The notes under the pieces are model-generated. The model was not told where the DNA came from, ran no database searches, and saw nothing but the letters and a program-made list of their open reading frames with translations. Positions 3,512 to 34,399 of a stretch of DNA of 52,797 bases are shown here, piece by piece (within the stretch, counting starts at the first letter, position 1; each line of letters begins with the position of its first letter). The position numbers and the translations under genes are program-made. The stretch lies in IMG/VR virus record IMGVR_UViG_3300023179_000145, positions 1 through 52,797 of that record; one strand, written 5' to 3'. Origin of the DNA: a virus (Duplodnaviria; Caudoviricetes).

Positions 3512-5094
3512 GCAAGTTTGGTTATTGAATAGTTAATAGTGGCTGCGATGCCAGTGTTGGTGGTAGTAGCTTTCCAACTCACAATACCAGCAGTTTCGCT
3601 AACAGCAAACGCAACACCAGTGGATGCATTCTGCACACCAGAATCTGATCCTTGTATATTTGTACCCGCTGAGTCGGTGCCAGCCACAATAGTGTACACA
3701 CCAGTTCTGGTGTTAACATCTCGCACTATGGTATAGTTGATCTGAACTGCTCTAATTGCTGTGGCATCAAATGTCAAAATGGTTTGGTTGGCAGTATTGT
3801 TGAGTAATGTTCCAGTAGTACCAGTTTGCCTTACATACGTACCTTGTTGTGTTTGATTAGCAGCATCAAATGCTATGTTAATACCGTTGTTGATGTTGAT
3901 TCGAGGATATGTGCCAGCATACGCTGTGGTACGTTGAAACATGTCGCCAACGCTGACATTGTTTTGTCCTACAAAATTAATTACCGCAGTAGCCGGCGAT
4001 GTAGTTCCGTTAAAATGATTGCCCACGTCATAAAACGTGTTGTATCCACTGGCATTCATTCCTGTATTAGCAGCAATCAAAATACCCTCGGCGTAGATGT
4101 TATCAAACACATTGCCCAAGAATCTAAATCCAGTAGGGCCGCCGCTGATTGGAGCCGGGTCTCCTAGCAACACACCTTGATAGTGTGTGTCAAATGTGCT
4201 TTCAGTGACCAATACGCCTTGTACTTGATTGGGAGTCTCAAATGCCCAAGTGGTGCCACCAAATGTACATCCACGGAACGTGATGTTTTTACAGATTAAA
4301 CTCGCAGTAGACGAAAAATGCACACATGCCACATTGTCAAGTGCGTCTGTTAGATCAAGTTGGGTGCGAGATCCTAAAAAACTCACGTCAGTAAAGGTAC
4401 ATTGTTCAGCATCTTCAACTAAAAATATGTCAGCTAGGCCTGCGGCTTCAAACCCCATATTGGAGATTGAAATATCAACAGGAGGGGTAGCACCATTGTT
4501 ACCAATGTTTACTCCTGTTTGCTGCAAGCTATCACTGTACACAGCCACATACTGGCTGGCACTGGCTGCGTCTAATACAATAACACTAGAGTTGATCCCT
4601 TCGCCATACAACAATGCATAAGGTGGAATTTTGATTGAACTGGTAACCAAATAGCGGCCAGCTGGAAAGAATAATGATCTACGTATTTGTGGATTTGGTT
4701 CTCTACAATACAGTTGAAACAATGCACGATTGATAGCATCGGTGTCATCAGTTACACCATCTCCTGTTGCACCAAAATTCAATACGCTGGCAAATTGATC
4801 TAACCAACTTTGTACACTTATACTAACTGGGCTACCAGATGATGCTCCGGTCTGCGCTATGTATCCAGCAGCAGCACCTTTGTAAGTGTATGCACCCCCT
4901 ACCAGCAATATATCACTGTATTCGGTGAGTATTTCTGTATTGCCTATTACAGGGGCGCCATCTTGCAAGGTTCCATTGCCGATGTAGAGTCGACGTGTGT
5001 CGATGGCCCAGCCCAACTCCGCGCCAGCCAATTGTGGCAGATTTTCTGCTAGACCTTTACGGTTTGTTATTCGTGATACTTGAACTATTGCCAT
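3508..5094 (-). CDS. Virion/tail protein with a pectate-lyase-like beta-helix
   Basis: N-terminal LAGAELGWAIDTRRLYIGNG tail-fibre motif; SVLNFGATGDGVTDDTDAINRA Pectate_lyase_3-type motif; upstream TAAATA. Confidence 0.75.
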   Translation of the reverse strand: MAIVQVSRITNRKGLAENLPQLAGAELGWAIDTRRLYIGNGTLQDGAPVIGNTEILTEYSDILLVGGAYTYKGAAAGYIAQTGASSGSPVSISVQSWLDQFASVLNFGATGDGVTDDTDAINRALFQLYCREPNPQIRRSLFFPAGRYLVTSSIKIPPYALLYGEGINSSVIVLDAASASQYVAVYSDSLQQTGVNIGNNGATPPVDISISNMGFEAAGLADIFLVEDAEQCTFTDVSFLGSRTQLDLTDALDNVACVHFSSTASLICKNITFRGCTFGGTTWAFETPNQVQGVLVTESTFDTHYQGVLLGDPAPISGGPTGFRFLGNVFDNIYAEGILIAANTGMNASGYNTFYDVGNHFNGTTSPATAVINFVGQNNVSVGDMFQRTTAYAGTYPRININNGINIAFDAANQTQQGTYVRQTGTTGTLLNNTANQTILTFDATAIRAVQINYTIVRDVNTRTGVYTIVAGTDSAGTNIQGSDSGVQNASTGVAFAVSETAGIVSWKATTTNTGIAATINYSITKLA

Positions 5095-23353: not shown

Positions 23354-24196
23354 TCATTGCCATTGTAATTTTTCCTGAGTATAAGGATACTCAGCATCAT
23401 TATAGTAGGCCTTGCGTTTGGCCAAATGCCGCTTGCTGAATTTACAAGTGCTGGTGATATCCCAAATCTGCACATGATCTTTGTCCTCAGCTTTTCTAAT
23501 ACCACGCCCGATTGATTGAATTACTCGGGTGAAACTTTTGCCTGACTCAATCATGACCAAGTTAAAGATACGTGGTATGTTGATACCAACTGCTGCCACA
23601 CCATATGTGGCCACAATGATTTTGCCAGTGGCAGTGGCCACTTCGTCGTATTCTTCTTGGCGTTTAGCGCCTTTGGTTGCACCCGATACAAATACTGCTT
23701 GATCTCCCAATCTTGCAACTAGTTCATGCCCGGGTGCTACTCGATCTACCAGCACAAGAGTATTACCAGTTTCATTCACTTGTAAAACCAACTGGGCTAT
23801 GGCATCTAATCTGCCGGGTTCTTCCAGTAGATATTTTAGTTCTTCTTGATAAGTTTTGTGCTCTCGAATGTCTACCAACTGCACCACATTCACGTGACAC
23901 TGTGCCAATACACCACGATCTTGCAATTCACTTGCTGCTAGTTTTGAAATAACTGGTCCCAGACTTACCAACAATGCTTGGCTTTCAAATTCTTCTTTGG
24001 GAATAGTTCCGGTCAATCCCCATCTTAGGGGAATCTGACACATGGCACCCGTCAGCAGGGTCTTGAGTGCGTCGGCCTTGGCCATGTGGCAATTTGCCAC
24101 AACAGCTCCTTCAACAATATAATTATGATCATTTTCTATGTGTAAGTTGTACACTTCTGTTGGTTTGATAATTTCGGTTCGGTCAATTAGTTTCAT
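23354..24196 (-). CDS. uvsW: UvsW piece 3: split-intein C-fragment 2 (35 aa, 24092-24196) plus helicase C-terminal 245 aa
   Basis: VYNLHIENDHNYIVEGAVVAN|CHMAKA...GLTGT...GINIP...QSIGRGIR. Confidence 0.94.
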   Translation of the reverse strand: MKLIDRTEIIKPTEVYNLHIENDHNYIVEGAVVANCHMAKADALKTLLTGAMCQIPLRWGLTGTIPKEEFESQALLVSLGPVISKLAASELQDRGVLAQCHVNVVQLVDIREHKTYQEELKYLLEEPGRLDAIAQLVLQVNETGNTLVLVDRVAPGHELVARLGDQAVFVSGATKGAKRQEEYDEVATATGKIIVATYGVAAVGINIPRIFNLVMIESGKSFTRVIQSIGRGIRKAEDKDHVQIWDITSTCKFSKRHLAKRKAYYNDAEYPYTQEKLQWQ

Positions 24197-25091
24197 ATAA
24201 TGCCTTTATTTTTTTTGCTGTTTTATCGTCAAATCGATTATAATCAATATCCATAATCTGAGCTTGTAACCATTCTTTGTCAACTAATAATACAGTGTAT
24301 CTGTTATTTTTTGCCCATTCATTGAGAGCATGCATTTTTGCAGTAAACTTTTCACCCAAACATAATTCTCTCGGTTTAACTTCTATAACTTGTTTGTTAT
24401 GATGATCCACAAAGTCCACAATATACACATGATTCTCAGAATTCAGTTCATATTTTATTCTCAGTAATTCATATTCTGCAAATTCATTGATATATTGATA
24501 CAATGCCTCCCAACTCGATCTGTAGGCCGTTCCGTCTAATGTTGCATCCCAGTGTGTGTTTCTATTATTACTGTTGGGCGTAAATGTTCCGGCTAATATC
24601 TTGGATTTCATAATTTGCGATCGCATTTCTTTATCAGCATCAGACATTTTAACACCGTACATTCCATTTCCAGGGCCGGAATTTTTTAGACTGATTTTAT
24701 TTTTAACTATTTGAGTCAGATGAGCGCGAGTTCCTATGTTTTGACCCTTTGTTCCGATATTCCACGGTGTACCAGTATTGAGATTTTTTTTAATAGCATT
24801 GCCATGTTTTTTCTGTACAGCCCGGCCGCCAATGGCCGATAGCATTGCTCTAATTTCTTGTTCTGTTACATTACCACATAACAATTTGTCAATATTAGTA
24901 ACCCATAACTCTGTTTTGCTGTTTGTTATTCTCTTGACAAATCTATGTTTTTCGTTGTTGGTCAATGTGATTCCAGTTGATAGTGTTATACTATTACCAG
25001 AATAATTTGTAATACGAATCAATTGCCCGTTCTTTTTCAATATTTCATTTAATATATCTATCATTTGCTGAACAGTCTTTTTCATAAACAC
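24183..25091 (-). CDS. Putative homing endonuclease (TnsA-N-like PD-(D/E)XK) inside the second uvsW split intein
   Basis: YRSSWE...YIVDF...IEVKP; PWN and GNGMYG NUMOD-like motifs. Confidence 0.85.
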   Translation of the reverse strand: MFMKKTVQQMIDILNEILKKNGQLIRITNYSGNSITLSTGITLTNNEKHRFVKRITNSKTELWVTNIDKLLCGNVTEQEIRAMLSAIGGRAVQKKHGNAIKKNLNTGTPWNIGTKGQNIGTRAHLTQIVKNKISLKNSGPGNGMYGVKMSDADKEMRSQIMKSKILAGTFTPNSNNRNTHWDATLDGTAYRSSWEALYQYINEFAEYELLRIKYELNSENHVYIVDFVDHHNKQVIEVKPRELCLGEKFTAKMHALNEWAKNNRYTVLLVDKEWLQAQIMDIDYNRFDDKTAKKIKALYETN

Positions 25092-25112
25092 CTTTGCTTT
25101 AGTTATATGTAT

Positions 25113-26084
25113 TTATGTTTTATTTATGATTTCGTGTGCATTGGTCAATTCATCTGCTCTCACCCATCCAGTATCAGTTAGAAACTTATGATTTCCGGTG
25201 ACTAGTATTTTATTCCCATTGTCAAACTCTAGCTCATACATTTTTTCACTGGAGGATTTAGCTAAATTCACATGCTGTTTAACCACAATATCAATCTTAA
25301 ATTCTTTTGTAGTTTCAGAATAGTTGATAACTTTGTCACCTGATTTAATATCTCTAATAGGCACATATCCAGTTGGAGTTAACACCCTGCTATCTGCCGA
25401 AAAACATTCATCCACAATCACACAAACAACATCTGTCAGGAATTCCTGTATGGTACAATCACCCACACCATTCTTGGTATTCTTCATGAGATTGTTCAGG
25501 CTTTGCCACGTGCATATGGTATGACTACGACCATATTCTTTTCTATCTCCGAAGTACACGCCTACATCCAACTCCATGTTGATATAATCTTTTTCTGTTT
25601 GTGTGACCAAGCTCTTGTTGGGCACAATCACAATACTGCGACCATACTTACTAACTGCGTCACTGAGTGCTGCTGTCATGATGGTGTTGTGGTGAATCAC
25701 CCCATCCATATCATAATAAAGGTGTGGCGAATCTATTCCTATATCATAAAATGTGGTATCAGGTATTTCGTAAATGGCATCTATAGTAACGTCTCCGTTG
25801 ATGGTTTCAATTTTTTCACCCACACATAAATCAAAAGCAAAAACGTCCCTGCCATTCTGTCGCAGAATATGCTTAGTGGCACACTTAATTTCTATTCCCG
25901 TAGACGTAACCAATTTAATTCCAGAAAGATTTTCTTTCTTGATTATATGGTTAATCCGAGACGATCCTGTAGGGGTATCTATATAACAACCCAAATCTGC
26001 TATATCGATCTCTTGATTGTGCTGTAGTTTTATATTTTTATACTCCTCTACTGCCGTTGCCAATTGTCCAATACTAATCTTCAT
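25113..26084 (-). CDS. uvsW: UvsW piece 2: IntC1 (133 aa, 25686-26084), 93-aa extein (25407-25685), IntN2 (97 aa, 25113-25406)
   Basis: ...FYDIGIDSPHLYYDMDGVIHHN|TIMTAAL...VIVPNKSLVTQ...VIVDE|CFSADS...VTGNHKFLT. Confidence 0.94.
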   Translation of the reverse strand: MKISIGQLATAVEEYKNIKLQHNQEIDIADLGCYIDTPTGSSRINHIIKKENLSGIKLVTSTGIEIKCATKHILRQNGRDVFAFDLCVGEKIETINGDVTIDAIYEIPDTTFYDIGIDSPHLYYDMDGVIHHNTIMTAALSDAVSKYGRSIVIVPNKSLVTQTEKDYINMELDVGVYFGDRKEYGRSHTICTWQSLNNLMKNTKNGVGDCTIQEFLTDVVCVIVDECFSADSRVLTPTGYVPIRDIKSGDKVINYSETTKEFKIDIVVKQHVNLAKSSSEKMYELEFDNGNKILVTGNHKFLTDTGWVRADELTNAHEIINKT

Positions 26085-27093
26085 TTAAAAACTTTCTACA
26101 TTTGTTAATGATTTCATCAGGGTTTTCTCTGTAATCCTTTTCTGAGATACGTAATATCGTAAATCCGGCTGCTTCCAAATCCCTCATTTTTCTTTGATCC
26201 TGTTCCCATATTTCAGCAACCGGTCTATTTCGAAGTATATCGGTTGCTTTATACAAAGCAGGATTGGCATGCCAATAATCGCCATCAAATTCAATTATTT
26301 TTCGAGTTTCAGAATCGTAATAATCAATGCGATATGTTTTTGATTTACCACGCACAGTAGTTTCATCGTCTCCGTATCTACCTTTACCGCCAACAGCATT
26401 GAATAATTCAGTTGAGACTTTGCTAATACCCAAAGTTAGCTTCGACATCTTGTTGAGCCATTTTTCTATCCTGGTGTTATACTTCAACGTACCGTCAACT
26501 TCTCCGTACTTCTCTATATACCAACTTAGCCCATTTGTAACTTGCATCTCTGCTACTTTCTGACACGCATTGGCATCTGAATATCCTTTTTTAATCCAAT
26601 ATTCTTTAGTTCTAACAGAAAATCCACGAGCACCTTTTTTTGAAGCCGGGGACTTTGCTGATCGAGTTTGTTGAATTGCTGATACCTTTTTGTTTGCCTC
26701 TTCTTTGGTAAAGCCAGCTGCTAACCAAAATTGCCGATTATTTGTAAATTTTCTTGTTTTGTGCTTTGAAAATGTTGTTAAAATATGATTGGCTTCATCT
26801 TGAGAAAATAATGTAGTTAACTTCTGCACCGTAGCATAGTTCTTACTGTCGGCAGAACATCCACAAGTGTTCACAATAAACTCGTTTTTACGAAACCCGA
26901 CGGGCAATGTCAAATGACATTTTAAGCAGTGTCTAGACTGAACTTCAAACTTGTTAAGTCCACTGTATGGCATATAATATACCTTATCTCCGTTGAATTG
27001 TATCAAATCCCATATGTCTAAATCAAGATTTTTTCTTGAGATCATCGAAGACCACATTTTTCTTTGGTATTTTTTAATAAATTCTTGTAACAT
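26074..27093 (-). CDS. Putative homing endonuclease (Vsr/DUF559-like) inside the first uvsW split intein
   Basis: IDY...IIEFDGDYWHANP...LRISE; YWIKKGY and YIEKYGEVDG repeats. Confidence 0.85.
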   Translation of the reverse strand: MLQEFIKKYQRKMWSSMISRKNLDLDIWDLIQFNGDKVYYMPYSGLNKFEVQSRHCLKCHLTLPVGFRKNEFIVNTCGCSADSKNYATVQKLTTLFSQDEANHILTTFSKHKTRKFTNNRQFWLAAGFTKEEANKKVSAIQQTRSAKSPASKKGARGFSVRTKEYWIKKGYSDANACQKVAEMQVTNGLSWYIEKYGEVDGTLKYNTRIEKWLNKMSKLTLGISKVSTELFNAVGGKGRYGDDETTVRGKSKTYRIDYYDSETRKIIEFDGDYWHANPALYKATDILRNRPVAEIWEQDQRKMRDLEAAGFTILRISEKDYRENPDEIINKCRKFLNED

Positions 27094-27110
27094 AGTTTTT
27101 GCTCCTGTAG

Positions 27111-27641
27111 CTATTTTCTATATTTATTTATTAAAAATCCTCCAAAACTTGAGTTTTCGGATACTGCGATATTAAGCAGGGTGTCAAATGTAACACACTT
27201 ACCCGCTCCAGTGGCCACTTCTTGTAGACACTGTGGGTTGGCTAGAAAATTGTTGATGATTTCTACTTGATAATCACGCAGCTCAATAGGCTTGCCTGCC
27301 AGTGGGTGTTTAACAGGCCAGATCTTGTGGGCATAAGTCTGTTCGTGTACTTGATCAAACTCAAATGTGGTTGTGTATGCGCGTTGATCATCCAGCTCAA
27401 CATCATAATTATGTTTGTCTAGTATGGGCAAGATCTCTGGCAATAGATTCACATAGGTGCTGCCGCTCAGTTGAAAGTATGCTACCTTGCCGTCCCAACG
27501 GCCAAGTCTCACTGCTGGCAGATAACGTGCGTAAGGTACATCGTATTTGAATTTTTTTACCAGATCTCGTCGAGTGTCAAGATCTAGCCCTTCAATTTTG
27601 ATATTGACTTCGTCACTTAGTTTAATTGTGCATTTTTTCAT
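27111..27641 (-). CDS. uvsW: UvsW piece 1: 148-aa N-extein plus a 28-aa split-intein N-fragment (27111-27197)
   Basis: GRWDGK, LRDYQ, ATGAGK|CVTFDTLLNI. Start MKKC placed from the promoter position. Confidence 0.93.
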   Translation of the reverse strand: MKKCTIKLSDEVNIKIEGLDLDTRRDLVKKFKYDVPYARYLPAVRLGRWDGKVAYFQLSGSTYVNLLPEILPILDKHNYDVELDDQRAYTTTFEFDQVHEQTYAHKIWPVKHPLAGKPIELRDYQVEIINNFLANPQCLQEVATGAGKCVTFDTLLNIAVSENSSFGGFLINKYRK

Positions 27642-27648
27642 ACAGTAT

Positions 27649-27677
27649 ATAGTAACACACTTGAATGCCATAGTCAA
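27649..27677 (-). promoter_or_regulatory. Sigma70-type promoter for uvsW
   Basis: TTGACT-17nt-TACTAT. Confidence 0.65.
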
Positions 27678-27707
27678 AAAAACAGGCACCAAAGTGCCTG
27701 TATAAAA
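27676..27707 (-). terminator. Rho-independent terminator
   Basis: Stem acaggcac-caaa-gtgcctgt with a T-run on the minus strand. Confidence 0.75.
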
Positions 27708-27762
27708 GAGTCGTTGGGCTAGAAATCCATTGGCGACTCTGTTTCTGGGAGAGCCAGAAATT

Positions 27763-27870
27763 TTATTTGGATTTGTCTCGAATTTGAAATCCAGCTTCTT
27801 CAGCTTCGTCAGCCTCGTATTTGGTATCTACTGAATACAAAAACAAATCACCGTCCCAAATCTCGTACAT
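27763..27870 (-). CDS. Small acidic hypothetical protein (35 aa)
   Basis: Hand-translated MYEIWDGDLFLYSVDTKYEADEAEEAGFQIRDKSK; AAGGA RBS. Confidence 0.6.
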   Translation of the reverse strand: MYEIWDGDLFLYSVDTKYEADEAEEAGFQIRDKSK

Positions 27871-27879
27871 GTTGTTTCC

Positions 27880-28029
27880 TTAAAAAATAAAAAGTAGCAC
27901 CTTACTCAACGAGCAGGCACTGGCTACCAAACACAACCATCCCAAAAATTTATTACCACCATCAAAACTGATCTTTGAAAGGAATGCATTGCCTAGCATC
28001 CACAAAATTTGTTCAACTGCTTGATTCAT
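27880..28029 (-). CDS. Small membrane protein (49 aa)
   Basis: Hand-translated MNQAVEQILWMLGNAFLSK...FLGWLCLVASACSLSKVLLLFF; abuts its neighbours. Confidence 0.55.
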   Translation of the reverse strand: MNQAVEQILWMLGNAFLSKISFDGGNKFLGWLCLVASACSLSKVLLFIF

Positions 28030-28030
28030 A

Positions 28031-28114
28031 TTACATCACAATCATCAGGACTATAAACGCTGCCAACCATGGGTAGCCGCAACACAATGCTGCAATAGCA
28101 GCTACCCAGGCCAT
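28031..28114 (-). CDS. Small membrane peptide (27 aa)
   Basis: MAWVAAIAALCCGYPWLAAFIVLMIVM; starts 1 nt after the stranded ATPase stop codon. Confidence 0.5.
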   Translation of the reverse strand: MAWVAAIAALCCGYPWLAAFIVLMIVM

Positions 28115-28115
28115 G

Positions 28116-28141
28116 TTAGGCTGCTTTCATGCAAGTGGTTT
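28116..28141 (-). pseudogene. Stranded original 3' end of the AAA ATPase gene
   Basis: AA ACC ACT TGC ATG AAA GCA GCC TAA (TTCMKAA*) parallels the current end ACG ACA TGT ATG CGT GCC AGG GGC TAA (TTCMRARG*). Confidence 0.85.
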
Positions 28142-28163
28142 GATGTCTGTCATAAATAATTTT

Positions 28164-28829
28164 ATGAAATTCCTGGACAACAAATATACAAAAACTTATT
28201 TTAACATTATTGCTTCTGCTAACACAAGAGTTATCGAAGGGTATGTTGAAAAACATCATATCATTCCAAAAAGTTTTGGGGGGACGAACCATGCTAATAA
28301 TCTTGTCAAACTTACTGCAAGGGAACATTTTATTTGTCATTTGTTACTAGTCAGAATGACCCAAGGGAGAAATCAAACAAAGATGCTACGGGCAATTCAA
28401 GCATTTGGTAAGTTGAAAAAAACAAACAGATCTCTCACAGCCCGACAGTACCAATTAGCACGAACTCTTACTGCTGATCTTCCTGCATGGAACAAAGGAA
28501 AAACTCTTGCCGACTATACTCCTGAACAAAAAGAGGCACTCCGTAAATCTGGTATTACCAAGAGAGGCAGAACACAAACTGCCGAAGCTAACGCTAAAAG
28601 ATCTGCAACGCAATCCGGAAGACCTGCTCATAACAAAGGTAAACCTATGCCTTTCAAAGGAAGAGTCAGTCCCACCAAAGGTATCACACACCCCAAGAAA
28701 CCATGTCCTCATTGCAGTAAAGAAGTTGCCGCAAATATTATGGCCAAGTATCATGGGGATAGGTGTCAATTTAGCCCCTGGCACGCATACATGTCGTCTC
28801 TGCCAGGCGTTTCCAGTTGCCTTCGCTGA
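28164..28829 (+). CDS. HNH homing endonuclease with NUMOD3-like motifs, antisense at the 3' end of the ATPase
   Basis: EKHHIIPKSFGG...NLVKLTAREHFICHLLL, AWNKG, CPHC. TAAATA 5 nt upstream of ATG 28164. Confidence 0.92.
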   Translation: MKFLDNKYTKTYFNIIASANTRVIEGYVEKHHIIPKSFGGTNHANNLVKLTAREHFICHLLLVRMTQGRNQTKMLRAIQAFGKLKKTNRSLTARQYQLARTLTADLPAWNKGKTLADYTPEQKEALRKSGITKRGRTQTAEANAKRSATQSGRPAHNKGKPMPFKGRVSPTKGITHPKKPCPHCSKEVAANIMAKYHGDRCQFSPWHAYMSSLPGVSSCLR

Positions 28830-29811
28830 GTTTACGCAGATCAGCAATCTTCAATGCCATACGCAGGCTCATCTCACGCAGACGATTTTGATTCTTGTCC
28901 ATAAACTCAATGATTGCATCTTGAGTTTCGGGCTCAAAGTCGTAGTCTGCAAACAGTACACCGTCCTTGGCAATCTGTTTGATACGCAAGATCTTGTCAC
29001 GCATGGTGTCAAGAGTCAAGTCCAAGTAATGGCAACGACTTTGCAGCGCATCCAAGTGATCACGCAGTTTCTGCGACTTCATTGCGTCAAACTTCAAGTT
29101 GGTAATAAAAATTACCGAGCCTTTGAAGTCAAACTGATCTGGAATGCCTTCGCGGCGCAGAGTAGAACTCTCGCTCAACCAAGAAATCTTACGCTTCTTG
29201 CCTGAGTCCAATGCACCCTTCAGCAAGTTCAATGAAACATCGTCTAGTAGAATGCTGTCGCAGTCATCGAACACCAGCACACAGTTTTCGTCGCTGTATT
29301 TGTAAAGAGTCTGATACAGGCCAATTGGAGTTGCACTGCCTTTGACAACTTCTGCACGAAGACGCTTGCCTGCAATCTTGTCAAACAGTGTGGCTTTTTG
29401 GATTTCTTGCTCAACACCAAAGCTCTTGCCCACACCCGGGGGACCTGACACAATCATTGCGCGGATATCGCCGCCGATACAGGCCTTGGACATTTCTGTA
29501 AGGATTTCAAAACGCTCACGGATACGAGTCATTGCTTCTTCTTCAGACTCTGCCAGATTTGCAGTCTTGGCGCTCAGTGTAGGAGCCAGAGGATTCAGTT
29601 CTACCGTATCGCCGTTCACCATTTCATAGTCAGTGATAGCATCGACCAGCACACGGATGTTTTCCGGAAGGTTCTTGCCCAAACTGCCATTGTTCGCAAT
29701 GGTGACATAGCCGCCTTTGGGCCCGGTCTGAAAGCCTGACACCAGCTTGAAGCATTGATTTTTGATAGTTTTGCCGCGATACACGCCGCGAATGATACGA
29801 ATTGCGCTCAT
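28771..29811 (-). CDS. P-loop (AAA-type) ATPase
   Basis: GPPGVGKS, VFDDCD, IFITN, ALQSR. Confidence 0.88.
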   Translation of the reverse strand: MSAIRIIRGVYRGKTIKNQCFKLVSGFQTGPKGGYVTIANNGSLGKNLPENIRVLVDAITDYEMVNGDTVELNPLAPTLSAKTANLAESEEEAMTRIRERFEILTEMSKACIGGDIRAMIVSGPPGVGKSFGVEQEIQKATLFDKIAGKRLRAEVVKGSATPIGLYQTLYKYSDENCVLVFDDCDSILLDDVSLNLLKGALDSGKKRKISWLSESSTLRREGIPDQFDFKGSVIFITNLKFDAMKSQKLRDHLDALQSRCHYLDLTLDTMRDKILRIKQIAKDGVLFADYDFEPETQDAIIEFMDKNQNRLREMSLRMALKIADLRKLSEGNWKRLAETTCMRARG

Positions 29812-29843
29812 GGTTTCTAGCCCCGTTTTGTTAATATGCCACT

Positions 29844-29872
29844 ATTGTAGCAGTTGTTGCATTACTAGTCAA
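29844..29872 (-). promoter_or_regulatory. Sigma70-type early promoter
   Basis: TTGACT-17nt-TACAAT with extended TG. Confidence 0.75.
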
Positions 29873-29974
29873 CTGCTTTTTACAGGATTTTTCCAACTTT
29901 TTCTGCAAAAACTGTGATTTTTTTGCCACATTGTTCGGCAGTGTTTTTGTTGGTATCTTGGTTGACATGCAGCT

Positions 29975-30003
29975 ATTATAGCCGATCATGCAATATCAGT
30001 CAA
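29975..30003 (-). promoter_or_regulatory. Sigma70-type early promoter, tandem with the one at 29844
   Basis: TTGACT-17nt-TATAAT. Confidence 0.75.
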
Positions 30004-30013
30004 CCAAGATAGT

Positions 30014-30832
30014 TTAGCGCCAGTGTTTTTTTATTACAACATCTGTAGTCTCGTGCGGTTTAGGATCTCCATGGAATACCAACACACTATTGTTGGGTTG
30101 TAATACTGTGCCTCGTCCTGGTCGGTTGTAGGTTCTATTTGTGAAATTCATACCGCCGTCTAGTGCAGTCCACCGCCAACTTACAATTCGATCTGAATCC
30201 ATAAATCGACGTTTTTCTGGAGCAATAACTGTTGTGAGATATTCCTGATCACCGCCGTGGTGATATCTGCTGATTATTTTGCTGGCTCCGTGCTGTTCAA
30301 AATTTGACCACACATGAGACCATTTGGTAGTGTCCCAATACATTACAGATGAGTTCATATTTTGTATATCTGGTTTCCATAGCACTCTGAAATCTCGTAT
30401 GGTCCAAAAATAAAACGGGCTAAGGCCCACAATCCAATCTATGTTGTCAACAATCACTGTGTCTAAGTCAAAGTACAACAATTGCCCAGAATGGTGCACT
30501 GGATTGAACATTTGCATTTTGTACCACCAGCTGCGTTTGCGACCACTTATGCCTGTCCATTCTGTCAAATCATGTTTGATCATATGCGGTGGCACCGGCC
30601 GGCTGGGTTCTGTATACACATGCAATCTCACACCACGAGTCAGATGGCGACTCAACATGCTGTGTAATTTTTCTACATAGACCCAGTCATAACCTGAGCC
30701 ATGAATAACGCAGGCACAATCAACAGGTCCTGTTGGGTCTGACACTGTGGGAGCTATATATCCTGGTAGTTTTTTTGCCCGATGTGCTTGTCTCTCAGCA
30801 CGATGCAGATCTTTTTCACGTTGGGTAGCCAC
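30014..30832 (-). CDS. GT-A fold glycosyltransferase
   Basis: WWYK, YFDLD, NSSVM, GDQ, FHGDPKP. Confidence 0.8.
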   Translation of the reverse strand: MATQREKDLHRAERQAHRAKKLPGYIAPTVSDPTGPVDCACVIHGSGYDWVYVEKLHSMLSRHLTRGVRLHVYTEPSRPVPPHMIKHDLTEWTGISGRKRSWWYKMQMFNPVHHSGQLLYFDLDTVIVDNIDWIVGLSPFYFWTIRDFRVLWKPDIQNMNSSVMYWDTTKWSHVWSNFEQHGASKIISRYHHGGDQEYLTTVIAPEKRRFMDSDRIVSWRWTALDGGMNFTNRTYNRPGRGTVLQPNNSVLVFHGDPKPHETTDVVIKKHWR

Positions 30833-32847: not shown

Positions 32848-32884
32848 TTTTTATTTACCGTTATATACGCCGATAAATATTTCT

Positions 32885-32935
32885 ATGAAAATTGTAATTG
32901 TAACTGGGGGATTTGACCCCAGATTGTATAAATGA
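32885..32935 (+). pseudogene. Stranded original 5' end of the cytidylyltransferase gene
   Basis: MKIVIVTGGFDP-RLYK* behind a TAAATA promoter (32874-32879); parallels MKIVLCTGGFDP at 33641. Confidence 0.88.
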
Positions 32936-32951
32936 ACATACAGGAGGAAGT

Positions 32952-33644
32952 ATGTTTATAGATAACAAATACTCAAAATGCTACTACAATCTCATTGAGC
33001 ATAGAAAAAATAATCCGTTTGACGGATATGTTGAGCAGCATCACATTGTCCCAAAAAGTCTCGGTGGCAGCAATAAAAAAGAAAATATTGTCGCCTTAAC
33101 TGCAAGAGAACATTTTATCTGCCACAGGCTCTTGGTTAAAATGACCAGCGGAAGAAACAAGATGAAGATGTCTTATGCTGTCAGATGTTTGATCAATCGA
33201 GAAAATGCATACCAACAGCGTTACAAAATCAGTTCTCGAACCTATGCTGCAATAATCTTAACTACAAGAAACAGTATTTCCAAATACCAAACTGGAGAAA
33301 ATAATCCATACTATGGAAAAATCCACTCTGAGGAAGTTAGAGCTAAGATGAGAGCCAAACGGGCATTACAAATTATGCCAACTCGAAAAGGAAAAGTGTA
33401 TTCGGAGGAATCGTTAAAGCTATGGCGAGAAGATAATAAAAAACAATTTGAAGATCCAGCTCAAATTGAGATGCGTAAAACACATACGTTGGAGCAAATG
33501 AAAGATCCTAGCCGCCGTTTTGCGGCTGGCAATGGCAAACGCGGAAAAAAATGGTATTATTGCCCTGTAACAAAAAAATGCTCTACATTTTTTCCAGACA
33601 CAGTTCCGCCAGGATATATAGAAGGAAGGATTATTAAAAAATGA
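32952..33644 (+). CDS. HNH homing endonuclease with NUMOD3
   Basis: EQHHIVPKSLGG...NIVALTAREHFICHRLL, GENNPYYGKIHSEE; AGGAGG RBS. Confidence 0.92.
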   Translation: MFIDNKYSKCYYNLIEHRKNNPFDGYVEQHHIVPKSLGGSNKKENIVALTAREHFICHRLLVKMTSGRNKMKMSYAVRCLINRENAYQQRYKISSRTYAAIILTTRNSISKYQTGENNPYYGKIHSEEVRAKMRAKRALQIMPTRKGKVYSEESLKLWREDNKKQFEDPAQIEMRKTHTLEQMKDPSRRFAAGNGKRGKKWYYCPVTKKCSTFFPDTVPPGYIEGRIIKK

Positions 33645-34399
33645 AAATTGTACTCTGCACCGGGGGATTCGATCCATGCCACTCTGGACATATCTCCTAT
33701 CTAGCAGCAGCCCGCCAACTTGGTGATCGGCTGGTAGTGGGAGTAAATTCTGACGCATGGTTAAGCCGTAAAAAAGGTCGACCGTTTATGCCTGCAGTTG
33801 AGCGTGTGGCAGTGATAGAAAATCTACGCATGGTAGATTGCTGTATCCTGTTCAATGACGATGATGGTTCAGGAATTGAAGCCATTCGTGCTGTACAAAG
33901 CATGTATCCCAATGCAGAAATAATCTTTGCCAATGGTGGTGATCGCACAAAAGAAAACATACCCGAAATGGTGTTTGACGATGTGGAGTTTGTGTTTGGG
34001 GTCGGCGGATCAAACAAGGCCAACAGCTCAAGCTGGATTCTTGAAGAATGGAAGAAACCCAAGACTGAACGCACCTGGGGATATTATCGTGTATTACATG
34101 AAGTTGGCTCACATGTAAAACTCAAAGAACTCACCGTGATGCCTGGGCAACGACTCAGTATGCAACGTCATGAAAAACGTGCTGAGTTTTGGTTTGTGGC
34201 CGAAGGTGAAGCCACAGTGTACACCGTGGATCCACACAGTACCGACCGGGAGTTGCTGGCCAGCCCTGCACGGCATCAACACACTTGGATTCGACTAGGA
34301 GAATGGCATCAGCTATGCAACGAAACTGATCAAATACTTAAACTGATCGAAATTCAGTATGGTGAAGATTGTGTAGAAGAAGACATTGAACGCAAATGA
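33641..34399 (+). CDS. Cytidylyltransferase-like (HxGH) domain fused to a mannose-6-P isomerase type II cupin
   Basis: TGGFDPCHSGH, VVGVNSD, FANGGDR; RTWGYY...LSMQRH..RAEFW...IEIQYG. Confidence 0.9.
   Translation: MKIVLCTGGFDPCHSGHISYLAAARQLGDRLVVGVNSDAWLSRKKGRPFMPAVERVAVIENLRMVDCCILFNDDDGSGIEAIRAVQSMYPNAEIIFANGGDRTKENIPEMVFDDVEFVFGVGGSNKANSSSWILEEWKKPKTERTWGYYRVLHEVGSHVKLKELTVMPGQRLSMQRHEKRAEFWFVAEGEATVYTVDPHSTDRELLASPARHQHTWIRLGEWHQLCNETDQILKLIEIQYGEDCVEEDIERK

What the first reader, a model, noticed from the sequence alone, without database searches (positions are those of the whole stretch)
28116..28829. HEG supplies a recoded replacement C-terminus for the ATPase and strands the original
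Seen: the ATPase now ends GAG ACG ACA TGT ATG CGT GCC AGG GGC TAA (ETTCMRARG*). Beyond the antisense HNH lies AA ACC ACT TGC ATG AAA GCA GCC TAA ([E]TTCMKAA*), directly followed by the next gene. The peptide is conserved while every changeable codon differs, so this is not a target-site duplication. The replacement is also read antisense as the HNH C-terminus. Inference: an intron- and intein-free way to invade a coding sequence that repairs the gene and destroys the cleavage site at once.
Basis: partly seen in the sequence, partly recalled or inferred. Interest (0 to 1): 0.82.

Follow-up and report, generated by a model that had tools for sequence, protein, structure and literature searches.

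The report
Homing endonuclease carrying spare gene tail
A selfish DNA-cutting-enzyme gene sits inside the last codons of a conserved ATPase gene of an uncultured T4-like lake phage, keeps that gene whole by bringing a foreign copy of its nine-codon tail, and leaves the original tail stranded behind it, a trick long known from fungal mitochondria.

Summary
A 658-nt insertion (window 28141-28798, 1-nt ambiguity) lies in codon E338 of an NrdC.10-type AAA ATPase. It carries a Mob-type HNH homing endonuclease gene on the opposite strand and a replacement tail, TTCMRARG*. The native tail TTCMKAA* (28116-28141) is stranded and still abuts the next gene.

None of 80 related viral loci has the endonuclease, and all 80 keep xTCM at the ATPase end. 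The relic matches L016 at 26 of 26 bases. Contigs from two other lake studies join 28140 directly to 28799, which is the predicted empty allele.

The "recoding" is an ordinary foreign allele. The replacement tail differs at only 2 of 18 bases from the endonuclease-free locus L019. Differences of 7 of 18 or more occur in 15-28% of natural allele pairs.

Nine of 120 HNH relatives have C-termini that could encode TCM[KR] on the antisense strand, so the tail probably belongs to the cassette.

The mechanism matches fungal mitochondrial mobile endonuclease ORFs (Allomyces atp6). I found no published phage case. This scan has noted the same layout at least eight times on other DNA. Cleavage specificity is untested.

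The parts
28771..29811 (-). Host gene: an AAA ATPase of the T4 NrdC.10 family (phrog_1250, function unknown), 346 aa, complete, ending LAETTCMRARG*.
   Evidence: ORF. Pfam AAA. phrog_1250 E 8e-84, with the profile matched to its last position at residue 343. Phage records annotate the matching gene as nrdC.10 (H171 T4, H146, H140).
28141..28798 (.). The inserted cassette, 658 nt, with a 1-nt ambiguity (equally 28142-28799). It contains the replacement tail, the HNH gene on the opposite strand and a 22-nt leader.
   Evidence: Similarity to HEG-free relatives breaks at the junction. Contigs of runs X2 and X3 join 28140 to 28799 and skip 658 nt (table 5).
28771..28798 (-). Foreign replacement tail of the ATPase, (GA)G ACG ACA TGT ATG CGT GCC AGG GGC TAA, giving TTCMRARG*.
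   Evidence: Over the 18 bases compared, the nearest natural alleles are L019 (2 differences) and L040/L041 (3 differences). It differs from the relic at 7 of 18 bases.
28164..28829 (+). Free-standing Mob-type HNH homing endonuclease gene, 221 aa from ATG 28164. The frame is also open from 28143 and 28113. The last 20 or so residues are read-through, antisense to the ATPase.
   Evidence: phrog_655 'homing endonuclease' E 3e-42. Pfam HNH_5, HNH and HNH_4 match below their cut-offs. Phage records annotate relatives as MobE-like or homing endonuclease. P0002-P0005 start at the residue equivalent to 28164.
28771..28829 (.). The 59-nt stretch coding on both strands: the ATPase end on the minus strand and the HNH C-terminal extension on the plus strand.
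   Evidence: The ATPase Thr339 codon is ACG here. An ACT at that place, as in L019, would put a TAG stop in the HNH frame, where P0002-P0005 end (read from the sequence; inference).
28116..28141 (-). Stranded native tail of the ATPase: AA + TTCMKAA*.
   Evidence: Matches L016 at 26 of 26 bases and L011, L012, L015 and L018 at 25 of 26. Over the 18 bases compared it has 0 differences from L010, L016 and L018.
28031..28114 (-). Next gene, a 27-aa hydrophobic peptide (MAWVAAIAALCCGYPWLAAFIVLMIVM). It starts one base after the relic's stop, just as it follows the ATPase stop in HEG-free relatives.
   Evidence: L016, L018, L004, L020 and L022 have the same gene in the same position.
28152..28158 (+). 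ATAAATA motif 5 nt before the HNH ATG, a possible late-type promoter inside the cassette. This is a weak hint only.
   Evidence: The pattern ATAAATA-N3-9-ATG gives 5 matches in the window against 2.26 expected, and 7 of 100 shuffles reach 5. One of the five precedes the cytidylyltransferase stub at 32873.

Best explanation
A free-standing Mob-type HNH homing endonuclease gene lies in a 658-nt cassette inserted into codon Glu338 of a T4-like phage's NrdC.10-family AAA ATPase gene. The cassette is oriented convergently to the ATPase.

Its far end carries a foreign allele of the gene's last nine codons plus the stop. The ATPase is therefore still made full length, with the invariant TCM motif. 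The phage's own last codons are cut off and lie untranslated between the cassette and the next gene.

The most likely history (inferred) has three steps:
1. The endonuclease cuts or nicks HEG-free ATPase alleles near the insertion point.
2. The break is repaired from an occupied genome. The ATPase body serves as one homology arm, and the relic plus downstream DNA serve as the other.
3. Because the replacement tail diverges from the native one, it escapes cutting and cannot recombine with the relic to delete the cassette.

The replacement tail is simply another phage lineage's allele (L019-like). It was probably captured as donor flank when the element first entered a KAA-type gene through a one-sided, non-homologous repair event.
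For: Shown by tool results:
- Anatomy and frames.
- 0 of 80 related viral loci have an HNH gene near the ATPase, and all 80 have xTCM at the ATPase end.
- The relic matches L016 at 26 of 26 bases and runs on into the same next gene.
- The 60 nt before the junction match L011 at 57 of 60, and the 150 nt before it at 140 of 150. L011 is a KAA-tail allele. Similarity then breaks exactly at the junction.
- Contigs of two other studies join 28140 to 28799 (X2 with 41 letters on the shorter side, X3 with 60). Two further joints are the same empty site in more diverged relatives.
- Contigs of three other studies bridge both cassette junctions: records 9, 10, 17, 18, 24 and 25. The arrangement is therefore neither an assembly artefact nor unique to this window.
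- P0001 (96% identical HNH) has an ORF running from a relic-like stretch to the tail.
- 9 of 120 HNH relatives, down to 44% identity and in three different registers, end in peptides that can encode TCM[K/R] on the antisense strand. Internal positions do so at 6 of 24,549.
- The HNH is intact and belongs to phrog_655.
- There is no intron: 0 Rfam matches in 27000-30200.
- A second HNH of the same family, 5 kb away, does the mirror image at the 5' end of a cytidylyltransferase gene.

Precedent: passages of PMC3630166.
Against: - No cleavage data exist. The target site, nick versus double-strand cut, and immunity of the replacement tail are all inferred.
The antisense-tail result therefore shows compatibility only, and the nine proteins are related to one another.
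- 0 of 160 loci holding more distant HNH relatives (47% identity or less) have an ATPase homologue nearby. The association is confined to one HNH sub-lineage.
- The ATPase gene is mosaic among all relatives, at 69-80% nucleotide identity overall. 'Native' and 'foreign' can only be assigned locally.
- L019 carries a similar tail without any endonuclease, so that tail type also exists independently of the cassette.
- The table of differences was truncated (417 rows not shown). My impression that the cassette is about 98% identical between runs while the ATPase flank is about 80-84% identical is not firmly established.
Confidence: 0.85

Rival explanations
1. Frozen accident. A single illegitimate recombination between two phages once placed an endonuclease gene and a piece of the donor's ATPase end here. 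The element no longer moves and is only inherited vertically.
For: - No cleavage or homing data exist.
- 0 of 80 IMG/VR relatives carry it.
- The HNH has an unusual read-through extension of about 20 residues that could impair it.
Against: - The cassette is bridged by contigs in runs of three other studies.
- Empty and occupied forms occur in the same runs, X2 and X3.
- HNH relatives from 96% down to 44% identity keep a C-terminus compatible with the antisense ATPase tail.
- The HNH motif and ORF are intact.
Confidence: 0.12
2. Reversed polarity. The RARG tail is this phage's own, and the KAA fragment plus the downstream small genes were imported together with the endonuclease from another phage.
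For: - The ATPase is mosaic.
- L019, with a similar tail, is 88% identical over the 150 nt before the junction.
- In one search the contigs that cover the relic junction stop aligning at 28111. The relic may therefore travel with the cassette.
Against: - The 60 nt next to the junction fit the KAA-type allele L011 best (57 of 60).
- The relic can only have come to abut the HNH start through an insertion into a KAA-type gene at this codon. This reading therefore moves the primary event to another genome without changing what the element is.
Confidence: 0.08
3. Target-site duplication by a transposon-like insertion, followed by divergence of the two copies.
For: A short stretch of the host gene is present on both sides of the insert.
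Against: - The copies differ at 7 of 18 bases and by one codon in length.
- The untranslated copy is identical to living alleles (26 of 26 to L016), while the translated copy is the one that differs. This is the opposite of what decay after duplication predicts.
- The cassette has no transposase or terminal repeats. Its only gene is the HNH.
Confidence: 0.02
4. Metagenome assembly chimera that joined two strain variants of the ATPase end.
For: The window is a metagenome-assembled viral fragment.
Against: - Independent contigs from three other studies bridge both junctions (records 9, 10, 17, 18, 24, 25).
- A 9,856-nt contig of X1 covers 27600-28885 with no differences.
- The ORF of P0001 spans the relic, the HNH and the tail.
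Confidence: 0.02

Closest known systems
Mobile endonuclease ORFs (mORFs) that make 'gene hybrids' in fungal mitochondria: Allomyces macrogynus atp6; Glomus sp. atp6, atp9, cox2 and nad3; Rhizopus oryzae atp9; Mortierella verticillata cox2. I read passages of PMC3630166. That paper cites the original Allomyces report, which I did not read.
   Same: - An endonuclease ORF is inserted near the 3' end of a conserved gene.
- It arrives with a foreign, diverged copy of the C-terminal coding part that completes the gene.
- The native C-terminus is left downstream.
- The native C-terminus is closer to the relatives' sequence than the inserted one is.
   Different: - The host is a T4-like phage, not a mitochondrion.
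- The enzyme is a Mob-type HNH. The families of the mitochondrial enzymes were not in the passages I read; I recall them as GIY-YIG or LAGLIDADG.
- The endonuclease lies on the opposite strand and overlaps the replacement tail. In several Glomus hybrids it is on the same strand and in phase with the host gene.
- The replaced part is only nine codons.
Intronless homing by free-standing endonucleases of T-even phages (Seg and Mob proteins, for example MobE next to nrdA/nrdB). I read passages of the review PMC2988022 and saw the abstract of PMC2790892 in a search listing.
   Same: - Same enzyme class. Relatives are annotated MobE-like, and T4 itself has 5 matching places.
- The element is a free-standing cassette that is present or absent at a fixed site among related phages.
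- Donor flank is expected to be co-converted.
- A promoter-like motif sits inside the cassette.
   Different: According to the review passages, the described T4 elements either sit between genes or split a gene into two working polypeptides (mobE in Aeh1 nrdA, mobA in gene 60). The word 'duplicat' does not occur in that review. Here the gene stays in one piece because the cassette supplies the missing end, and a dead copy of the old end remains.
Fractured genes: split inteins with a free-standing endonuclease gene between the halves. Such arrangements are visible in this same window in uvsW.
   Same: A homing endonuclease gene sits inside a conserved phage gene, and the gene's function is preserved.
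   Different: Function is rescued there by protein trans-splicing. Here there is no intein. The ATPase ORF is contiguous to its stop, and Pfam finds only AAA domains in it.

Membership tests
Free-standing HNH (Mob-type) homing endonuclease | An HNH (beta-beta-alpha-metal) catalytic motif in an intact ORF | tested here: met
   - phrog_655 'homing endonuclease' E 3e-42 over residues 3-210.
- Pfam HNH_5, HNH and HNH_4 match residues 22-49, but below their gathering scores.
- The stretch EKHHIIPKSFGG..NLV..EH is visible in the translation.
- No PDB sequence match at E up to 1.
Free-standing HNH (Mob-type) homing endonuclease | Not embedded in an intron or intein | tested here: met
   - 0 Rfam matches at E up to 1 in 27000-30200.
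- The ATPase ORF is contiguous.
- The HNH gene lies on the other strand.
- Pfam finds no Hint or intein domain in the ATPase.
Free-standing HNH (Mob-type) homing endonuclease | Presence or absence at one precise site among otherwise homologous genomes | tested here: met
   - 0 of 80 related loci carry it.
- Empty-site joints 28140 to 28799 occur in X2 and X3.
- Occupied contigs occur in X2, X3 and X5.
Free-standing HNH (Mob-type) homing endonuclease | Site-specific nicking or cleavage of the empty allele, and super-Mendelian inheritance in mixed infection | not testable with these tools
   This needs enzyme assays or phage crosses. The host is unknown and the phage is uncultured.
mORF-type gene hybrid (endonuclease cassette with replacement C-terminus) | The inserted C-terminal coding piece completes the host gene in frame | tested here: met
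   The ATPase is 346 aa, against stop positions equivalent to 343-351 in the relatives. It keeps TTCM plus a basic residue. The phrog_1250 profile is matched to its last position.
mORF-type gene hybrid (endonuclease cassette with replacement C-terminus) | The native C-terminus is retained downstream and is closer to the relatives than the inserted one is | tested here: met
   The relic has 0 of 18 differences from L010, L016 and L018, and matches L016 at 26 of 26. Against those same alleles the inserted tail has 7 of 18 differences.
mORF-type gene hybrid (endonuclease cassette with replacement C-terminus) | The inserted C-terminus is of foreign origin and travels with the endonuclease | tested here: inconclusive
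   Foreign origin is supported: the nearest allele is L019 at 2 of 18 differences, and similarity breaks abruptly at the junction. Co-travel is supported only indirectly, by 9 of 120 HNH relatives with antisense-compatible C-termini and by contigs of other runs that bridge the junction. The DNA of the close relatives was not obtainable.
mORF-type gene hybrid (endonuclease cassette with replacement C-terminus) | The endonuclease ORF is on the same strand as the host gene, often in phase with it (as in Glomus atp6 and nad3) | tested here: not met
   The HNH is on the opposite strand, convergent with the ATPase and overlapping it by 59 nt. I treat this as a variable feature of the mitochondrial cases, not a defining one.
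Transposon with target-site duplication | Identical direct repeats of target DNA flanking the insert, together with a transposase | tested here: not met
   The copies differ at 7 of 18 bases and in length. The only ORF family found in the insert is the HNH.

The most novel reading that the evidence does not exclude
This HNH lineage is a specialist in replacing gene termini, and the lake phage population preserves its whole life cycle.

The same family occupies two genes in this phage. At the NrdC.10 ATPase it carries a spare 3' end on the antisense strand. At a cytidylyltransferase it carries a spare 5' end.

Endonuclease-free genomes that nevertheless carry the cassette's diverged patch would be 'vaccinated' alleles left by loss of the element or by short-tract conversion from it. 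Two candidates exist:
- L250, identical to the window over the first 122 nt of the cytidylyltransferase, and differing from its sibling L252 only by a 9-base patch within the first 114 nt.
- L019, for the ATPase tail.

On this reading the stranded relic is not junk. It is the homology arm that lets the cassette home into a coding sequence. The antisense overlap ties the endonuclease's stop codon to a Thr codon of the host gene.
Probability: 0.35. Interest if true: 0.65.

Novelty: new variant of a known kind. Interest (0 to 1): 0.5.

Why it matters
Free-standing homing endonucleases of phages are usually described as sitting between genes or as splitting genes into pieces. This case shows a third outcome in a T4-like phage: the cassette enters the coding sequence and supplies the missing end itself.

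Until now that outcome was documented for fungal mitochondria. The strategy therefore appears to be general to homing endonucleases rather than an organelle curiosity.

The case also has practical value:
- It comes with natural empty alleles, occupied alleles and possibly resistant empty alleles in public lake metagenomes.
- It gives a short (about 30 bp) candidate recognition site with natural sensitive and resistant versions. An HNH nickase's specificity could be tested directly on these.
- For annotation, short duplicated gene ends next to endonuclease genes should be read as scars of such events. Trees of the host gene should exclude the foreign tail.

Tried and rejected
**Searches that led nowhere**
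- DNA search of the phage collection with 27700-29900 gave only a 112-nt HNH-core match to Lak phages. No close cultured relative exists.
- The search for related loci with the HNH gave only relatives of 47% identity or less, in viral contigs and in metagenome contigs.
- A degenerate pattern for the HNH zinc-finger end found 0 viral contigs.
- 0 of 160 loci with those distant HNH relatives hold an ATPase homologue, so they say nothing about this site.
- The PDB sequence search with the HNH gave 0 matches.
- The sigma-70 promoter and terminator scan of 27650-29000 was not above shuffles: 4 against 2.7 promoters and 3 against 1.3 terminators.
- The exact motif TATAAATA is not enriched in the window: 3 against 3.13 expected.
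- ATAAATA-N3-9-ATG is only weakly enriched.
- The sliding-window mosaic analysis of the ATPase showed a gene that is mosaic against all 21 relatives compared. It revealed no clean long co-conversion tract.
- I could not show that L019's tail is a local patch, because L019 has no near-identical sibling (best is L021 at 90%).

**Read laying**
- Depth cannot rank abundance, so I make no claim about how rare the cassette is.
- The difference table was truncated, so cassette-versus-flank identity between runs is only an impression.
- Run X1 is probably the window's own sample and is not independent.

**Literature**
- Searches turned up no phage case of a homing-endonuclease-borne replacement gene end.
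- Passages of PMC2988022, PMC10448857 and PMC12724721 also gave none.
- The SegF paper was not held.
- Supplements are closed. Figures S1-S4 and Tables S1-S4 of PMC3630166 were not seen.

**Readings rejected**
Target-site duplication, assembly chimera, and intron or intein were considered and rejected, as set out under the rival explanations and membership tests.
Full report
**What is there**

The window is a 52.8-kb fragment of an uncultured virus. Its genes are T4-like. On the minus strand, ORF 28771..29811 encodes a 346-aa AAA ATPase that ends LAETTCMRARG*.
- It matches Pfam AAA.
- It matches phrog_1250 at E 8e-84, and the profile is matched to its very last position at residue 343.
- Phage records annotate the matching gene as nrdC.10, including a T4 record (H171, H146, H140).

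On the plus strand, an ORF open from 28113 to 28829 encodes an HNH protein.
- It matches phrog_655 'homing endonuclease' at E 3e-42.
- Pfam HNH models match below their cut-offs.
- Phage annotations of its relatives read 'MobE-like' or 'homing endonuclease', and T4 itself has five matching places.
- The likely start is ATG 28164, where the nearest relatives P0002-P0005 begin.

Between the HNH start and the next minus-strand gene lies 28116..28141, AAACCACTTGCATGAAAGCAGCCTAA, which reads TTCMKAA*. One base later comes the ATG of a 27-aa hydrophobic peptide gene, 28114..28031. Rfam finds nothing in 27000-30200. No intein domain is present in the ATPase.

**Is it more than chance?**

A scan of viral contigs returned 80 loci encoding relatives of the ATPase at 48-87% identity.
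- None of the 80 has an HNH relative anywhere in the fetched flanks.
- All 80 have x-T-C-M at the position of the tail.
- Nine close relatives end ETTCMKAA*.
- The relic is identical to the last 26 bases of L016 and matches L011, L012, L015 and L018 at 25 of 26. In L016, L018 and L021 the same small gene follows.
- The 60 bases of the window's ATPase just before the junction match L011 at 57 of 60, and the 150 bases before it at 140 of 150. L011 is a KAA-tail allele. Similarity then collapses exactly at the Glu338 codon.

The stranded piece is therefore the native end of this gene. The insertion is 658 nt, 28141-28798, with one ambiguous base.

**Independent confirmation of the empty and occupied alleles**

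I laid Logan contigs of four lake or freshwater runs from four studies on 27600-29400 at 80% likeness.
- Contigs in X2 (41 letters on the shorter side) and X3 (60 letters) join 28140 directly to 28799.
- Two further joints are the same empty site in more diverged relatives: 28139 to 28825 with 27 diverged letters between (X2, X3), and 28125 to 28829 (X2).
- In the same call, contigs of X2, X3 and X5 bridge both cassette junctions (records 9, 10, 17, 18, 24, 25). They carry a TGG>CAA variant at 28779-28781, which changes the ATPase tail from ..RARG to ..RVGG.

The arrangement is therefore not an assembly artefact. It occurs in other lakes, and empty and occupied forms coexist in X2 and X3. X1 is probably the window's own sample.

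**The 'recoding'**

This is ordinary allelic divergence for this gene.
- Among endonuclease-free alleles, 15% of pairs in the close clade (17 distinct tails from 28 loci) differ at 7 or more bases.
- Among all 45 distinct tails, 28% of pairs do.
- The replacement tail is 2 of 18 from the endonuclease-free locus L019 (ETTCMRVGD*) and 3 of 18 from L040/L041.

The tail is thus a foreign natural allele, not a purpose-made recoding. The untranslated copy is the one identical to living alleles. That rules out a target-site duplication followed by drift.

**Does the tail belong to the cassette?**

The conserved part of the HNH family ends at the HGDRC zinc-finger residues, at about 28766. Most relatives align only to residues 209-213 of the 228-residue query.

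The protein database holds closer relatives.
- P0001 (96% identity) has an ORF that runs from a relic-like stretch through to a tail like the window's.
- P0002-P0005 (78-83%) and P0011 end ..[H/N/R]AYM*.
- P0008 ends ..YACK*.
- P0020, P0024 and P0045 (44-52%) end ..DAYKS*.

An exhaustive back-translation test showed that 9 of 120 relatives can encode T-C-M-[K/R] on the antisense strand within their last 12 positions. Internal positions do so at 6 of 24,549. The nine fall into three registers, so this is not a single inherited peptide. I read this as the host-gene tail constraining the endonuclease's C-terminus across a long-lived association.

One detail follows directly from the sequence. Opposite the ATPase Thr339 codon, ACT (as in L019) gives TAG in the HNH frame, which is where P0002-P0005 stop. 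The window has ACG there, so its HNH reads on for 12 more codons into the ATPase body. The 'antisense HNH C-terminus' is therefore mainly read-through.

**A second case in the same window**

I checked it.
- A stub, MKIVIVTGGFDP followed by RLYK*, sits behind its native upstream region.
- Next comes a second HNH (32952-33644), 57% identical to the first over its N-terminal 79 residues.
- Then the cytidylyltransferase restarts with MKIVLCTGGFDPCH, overlapping the HNH stop.
- The 31 relatives' starts that I inspected, of the 80 loci fetched, read straight through. Only one of the 80 loci, L310, has a weak HNH match.
- The endonuclease-free locus L250 carries the cassette's version exactly. It is identical to the window over the first 122 nt. 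It differs from its sibling L252 (92.6% identical overall) only by a 9-base patch at positions 15-39 within the first 114 nt.

L250 looks like an empty allele that kept, or received, the cassette's patch. L019 may be the equivalent for the ATPase, but it has no near-identical sibling to prove it.

**How it most likely works**

Shown:
- the anatomy;
- the native and foreign assignment of the two tails;
- the presence/absence polymorphism;
- an intact Mob-type HNH gene.

Inferred from established knowledge of homing (review passages):
- The enzyme nicks or cuts empty alleles near the Glu338/Thr339 codons.
- Repair copies the cassette from an occupied genome, using the ATPase body and the relic plus downstream DNA as homology arms.
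- The diverged tail protects the occupied allele from cutting.
- Because the tail shares little identity with the relic, the two copies cannot recombine to delete the cassette.
- The primary event was probably a break in a KAA-type gene repaired from a donor with an L019-like tail. It would have been homologous on the ATPase side and non-homologous at the endonuclease's far end, which would place the relic's first base near the original break.

**Comparison with what is known**

The same design is documented for fungal mitochondrial mobile endonuclease ORFs. I read passages of PMC3630166, which describe:
- an inserted foreign C-terminus;
- an endonuclease ORF;
- a native C*-terminus left downstream that is closer to the relatives' sequence than the inserted one;
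- Allomyces macrogynus atp6 cited as the first case.

The differences here are the host (a phage), the enzyme family (Mob-type HNH), the opposite-strand overlapping arrangement, and the very short replaced part.

In phages, passages of the T4 mobile-element review describe intergenic insertion or gene splitting (mobE in Aeh1 nrdA, mobA in gene 60). The word 'duplicat' is absent from that text. Four full-text searches and passages of two recent phage endonuclease surveys gave no phage example. That is not proof that none exists.

This scan itself has flagged the same layout at least eight times on other DNA, in phages, archaea and a bacterium. I did not test those notes.

**Verdict**

I class it as a new variant of a known kind, of moderate interest. 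It is a clean, population-sampled phage example with a directly testable target site.

Noticed in passing
window 32886-33700: Mirror-image case. A native 5' stub of a cytidylyltransferase gene (MKIVIVTGGFDP then RLYK*) is followed by a second HNH of the same family (32952-33644). The gene then restarts with a diverged MKIVLCTGGFDPCH that overlaps the HNH stop. HEG-free relatives read straight through. HEG-free locus L250 carries the diverged patch exactly: it is identical to the window for the first 122 nt and differs from its sibling L252 only by a 9-base patch within the first 114 nt.
   Followed up: partly
window 23354-27692 (minus strand): The UvsW-type helicase is encoded in three pieces. 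Piece 1 ends at the Walker A motif followed by Cys and a short intein-like N-fragment. Piece 2 has ResIII and Hint/intein-splicing domains. Piece 3 begins with an intein-like C-fragment before Helicase_C. Two endonuclease-like genes lie between the pieces: 26074-27093 (DUF559/MTES_1575) and 24183-25091 (TnsA-like, phrog_15427 endonuclease). This looks like split-intein 'fractured genes'.
   Followed up: no
window 28116-28340 (minus strand): A 74-aa ORF antisense to the 5' part of the HNH gene ends in the stranded tail (..HQTTCMKAA*). It is probably a chance ORF. If translated, it could preserve translational coupling to the small peptide gene that starts one base after its stop.
   Followed up: no
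locus L019, about 4990-5023: This HEG-free relative has an ATPase body that groups with KAA-tail alleles (90% to L021). Its tail, however, is of the cassette type (ETTCMRVGD*, 2 of 18 differences from the window's replacement tail), and a different gene follows. It may be a former occupied allele or the donor type.
   Followed up: partly
phage records H167 and H174: In some T-even phage records the nrdC.10 homologue is annotated next to a 'DNA endonuclease' or 'homing endonuclease'. This neighbourhood may be a recurrent landing zone for such elements in cultured phages too.
   Followed up: no
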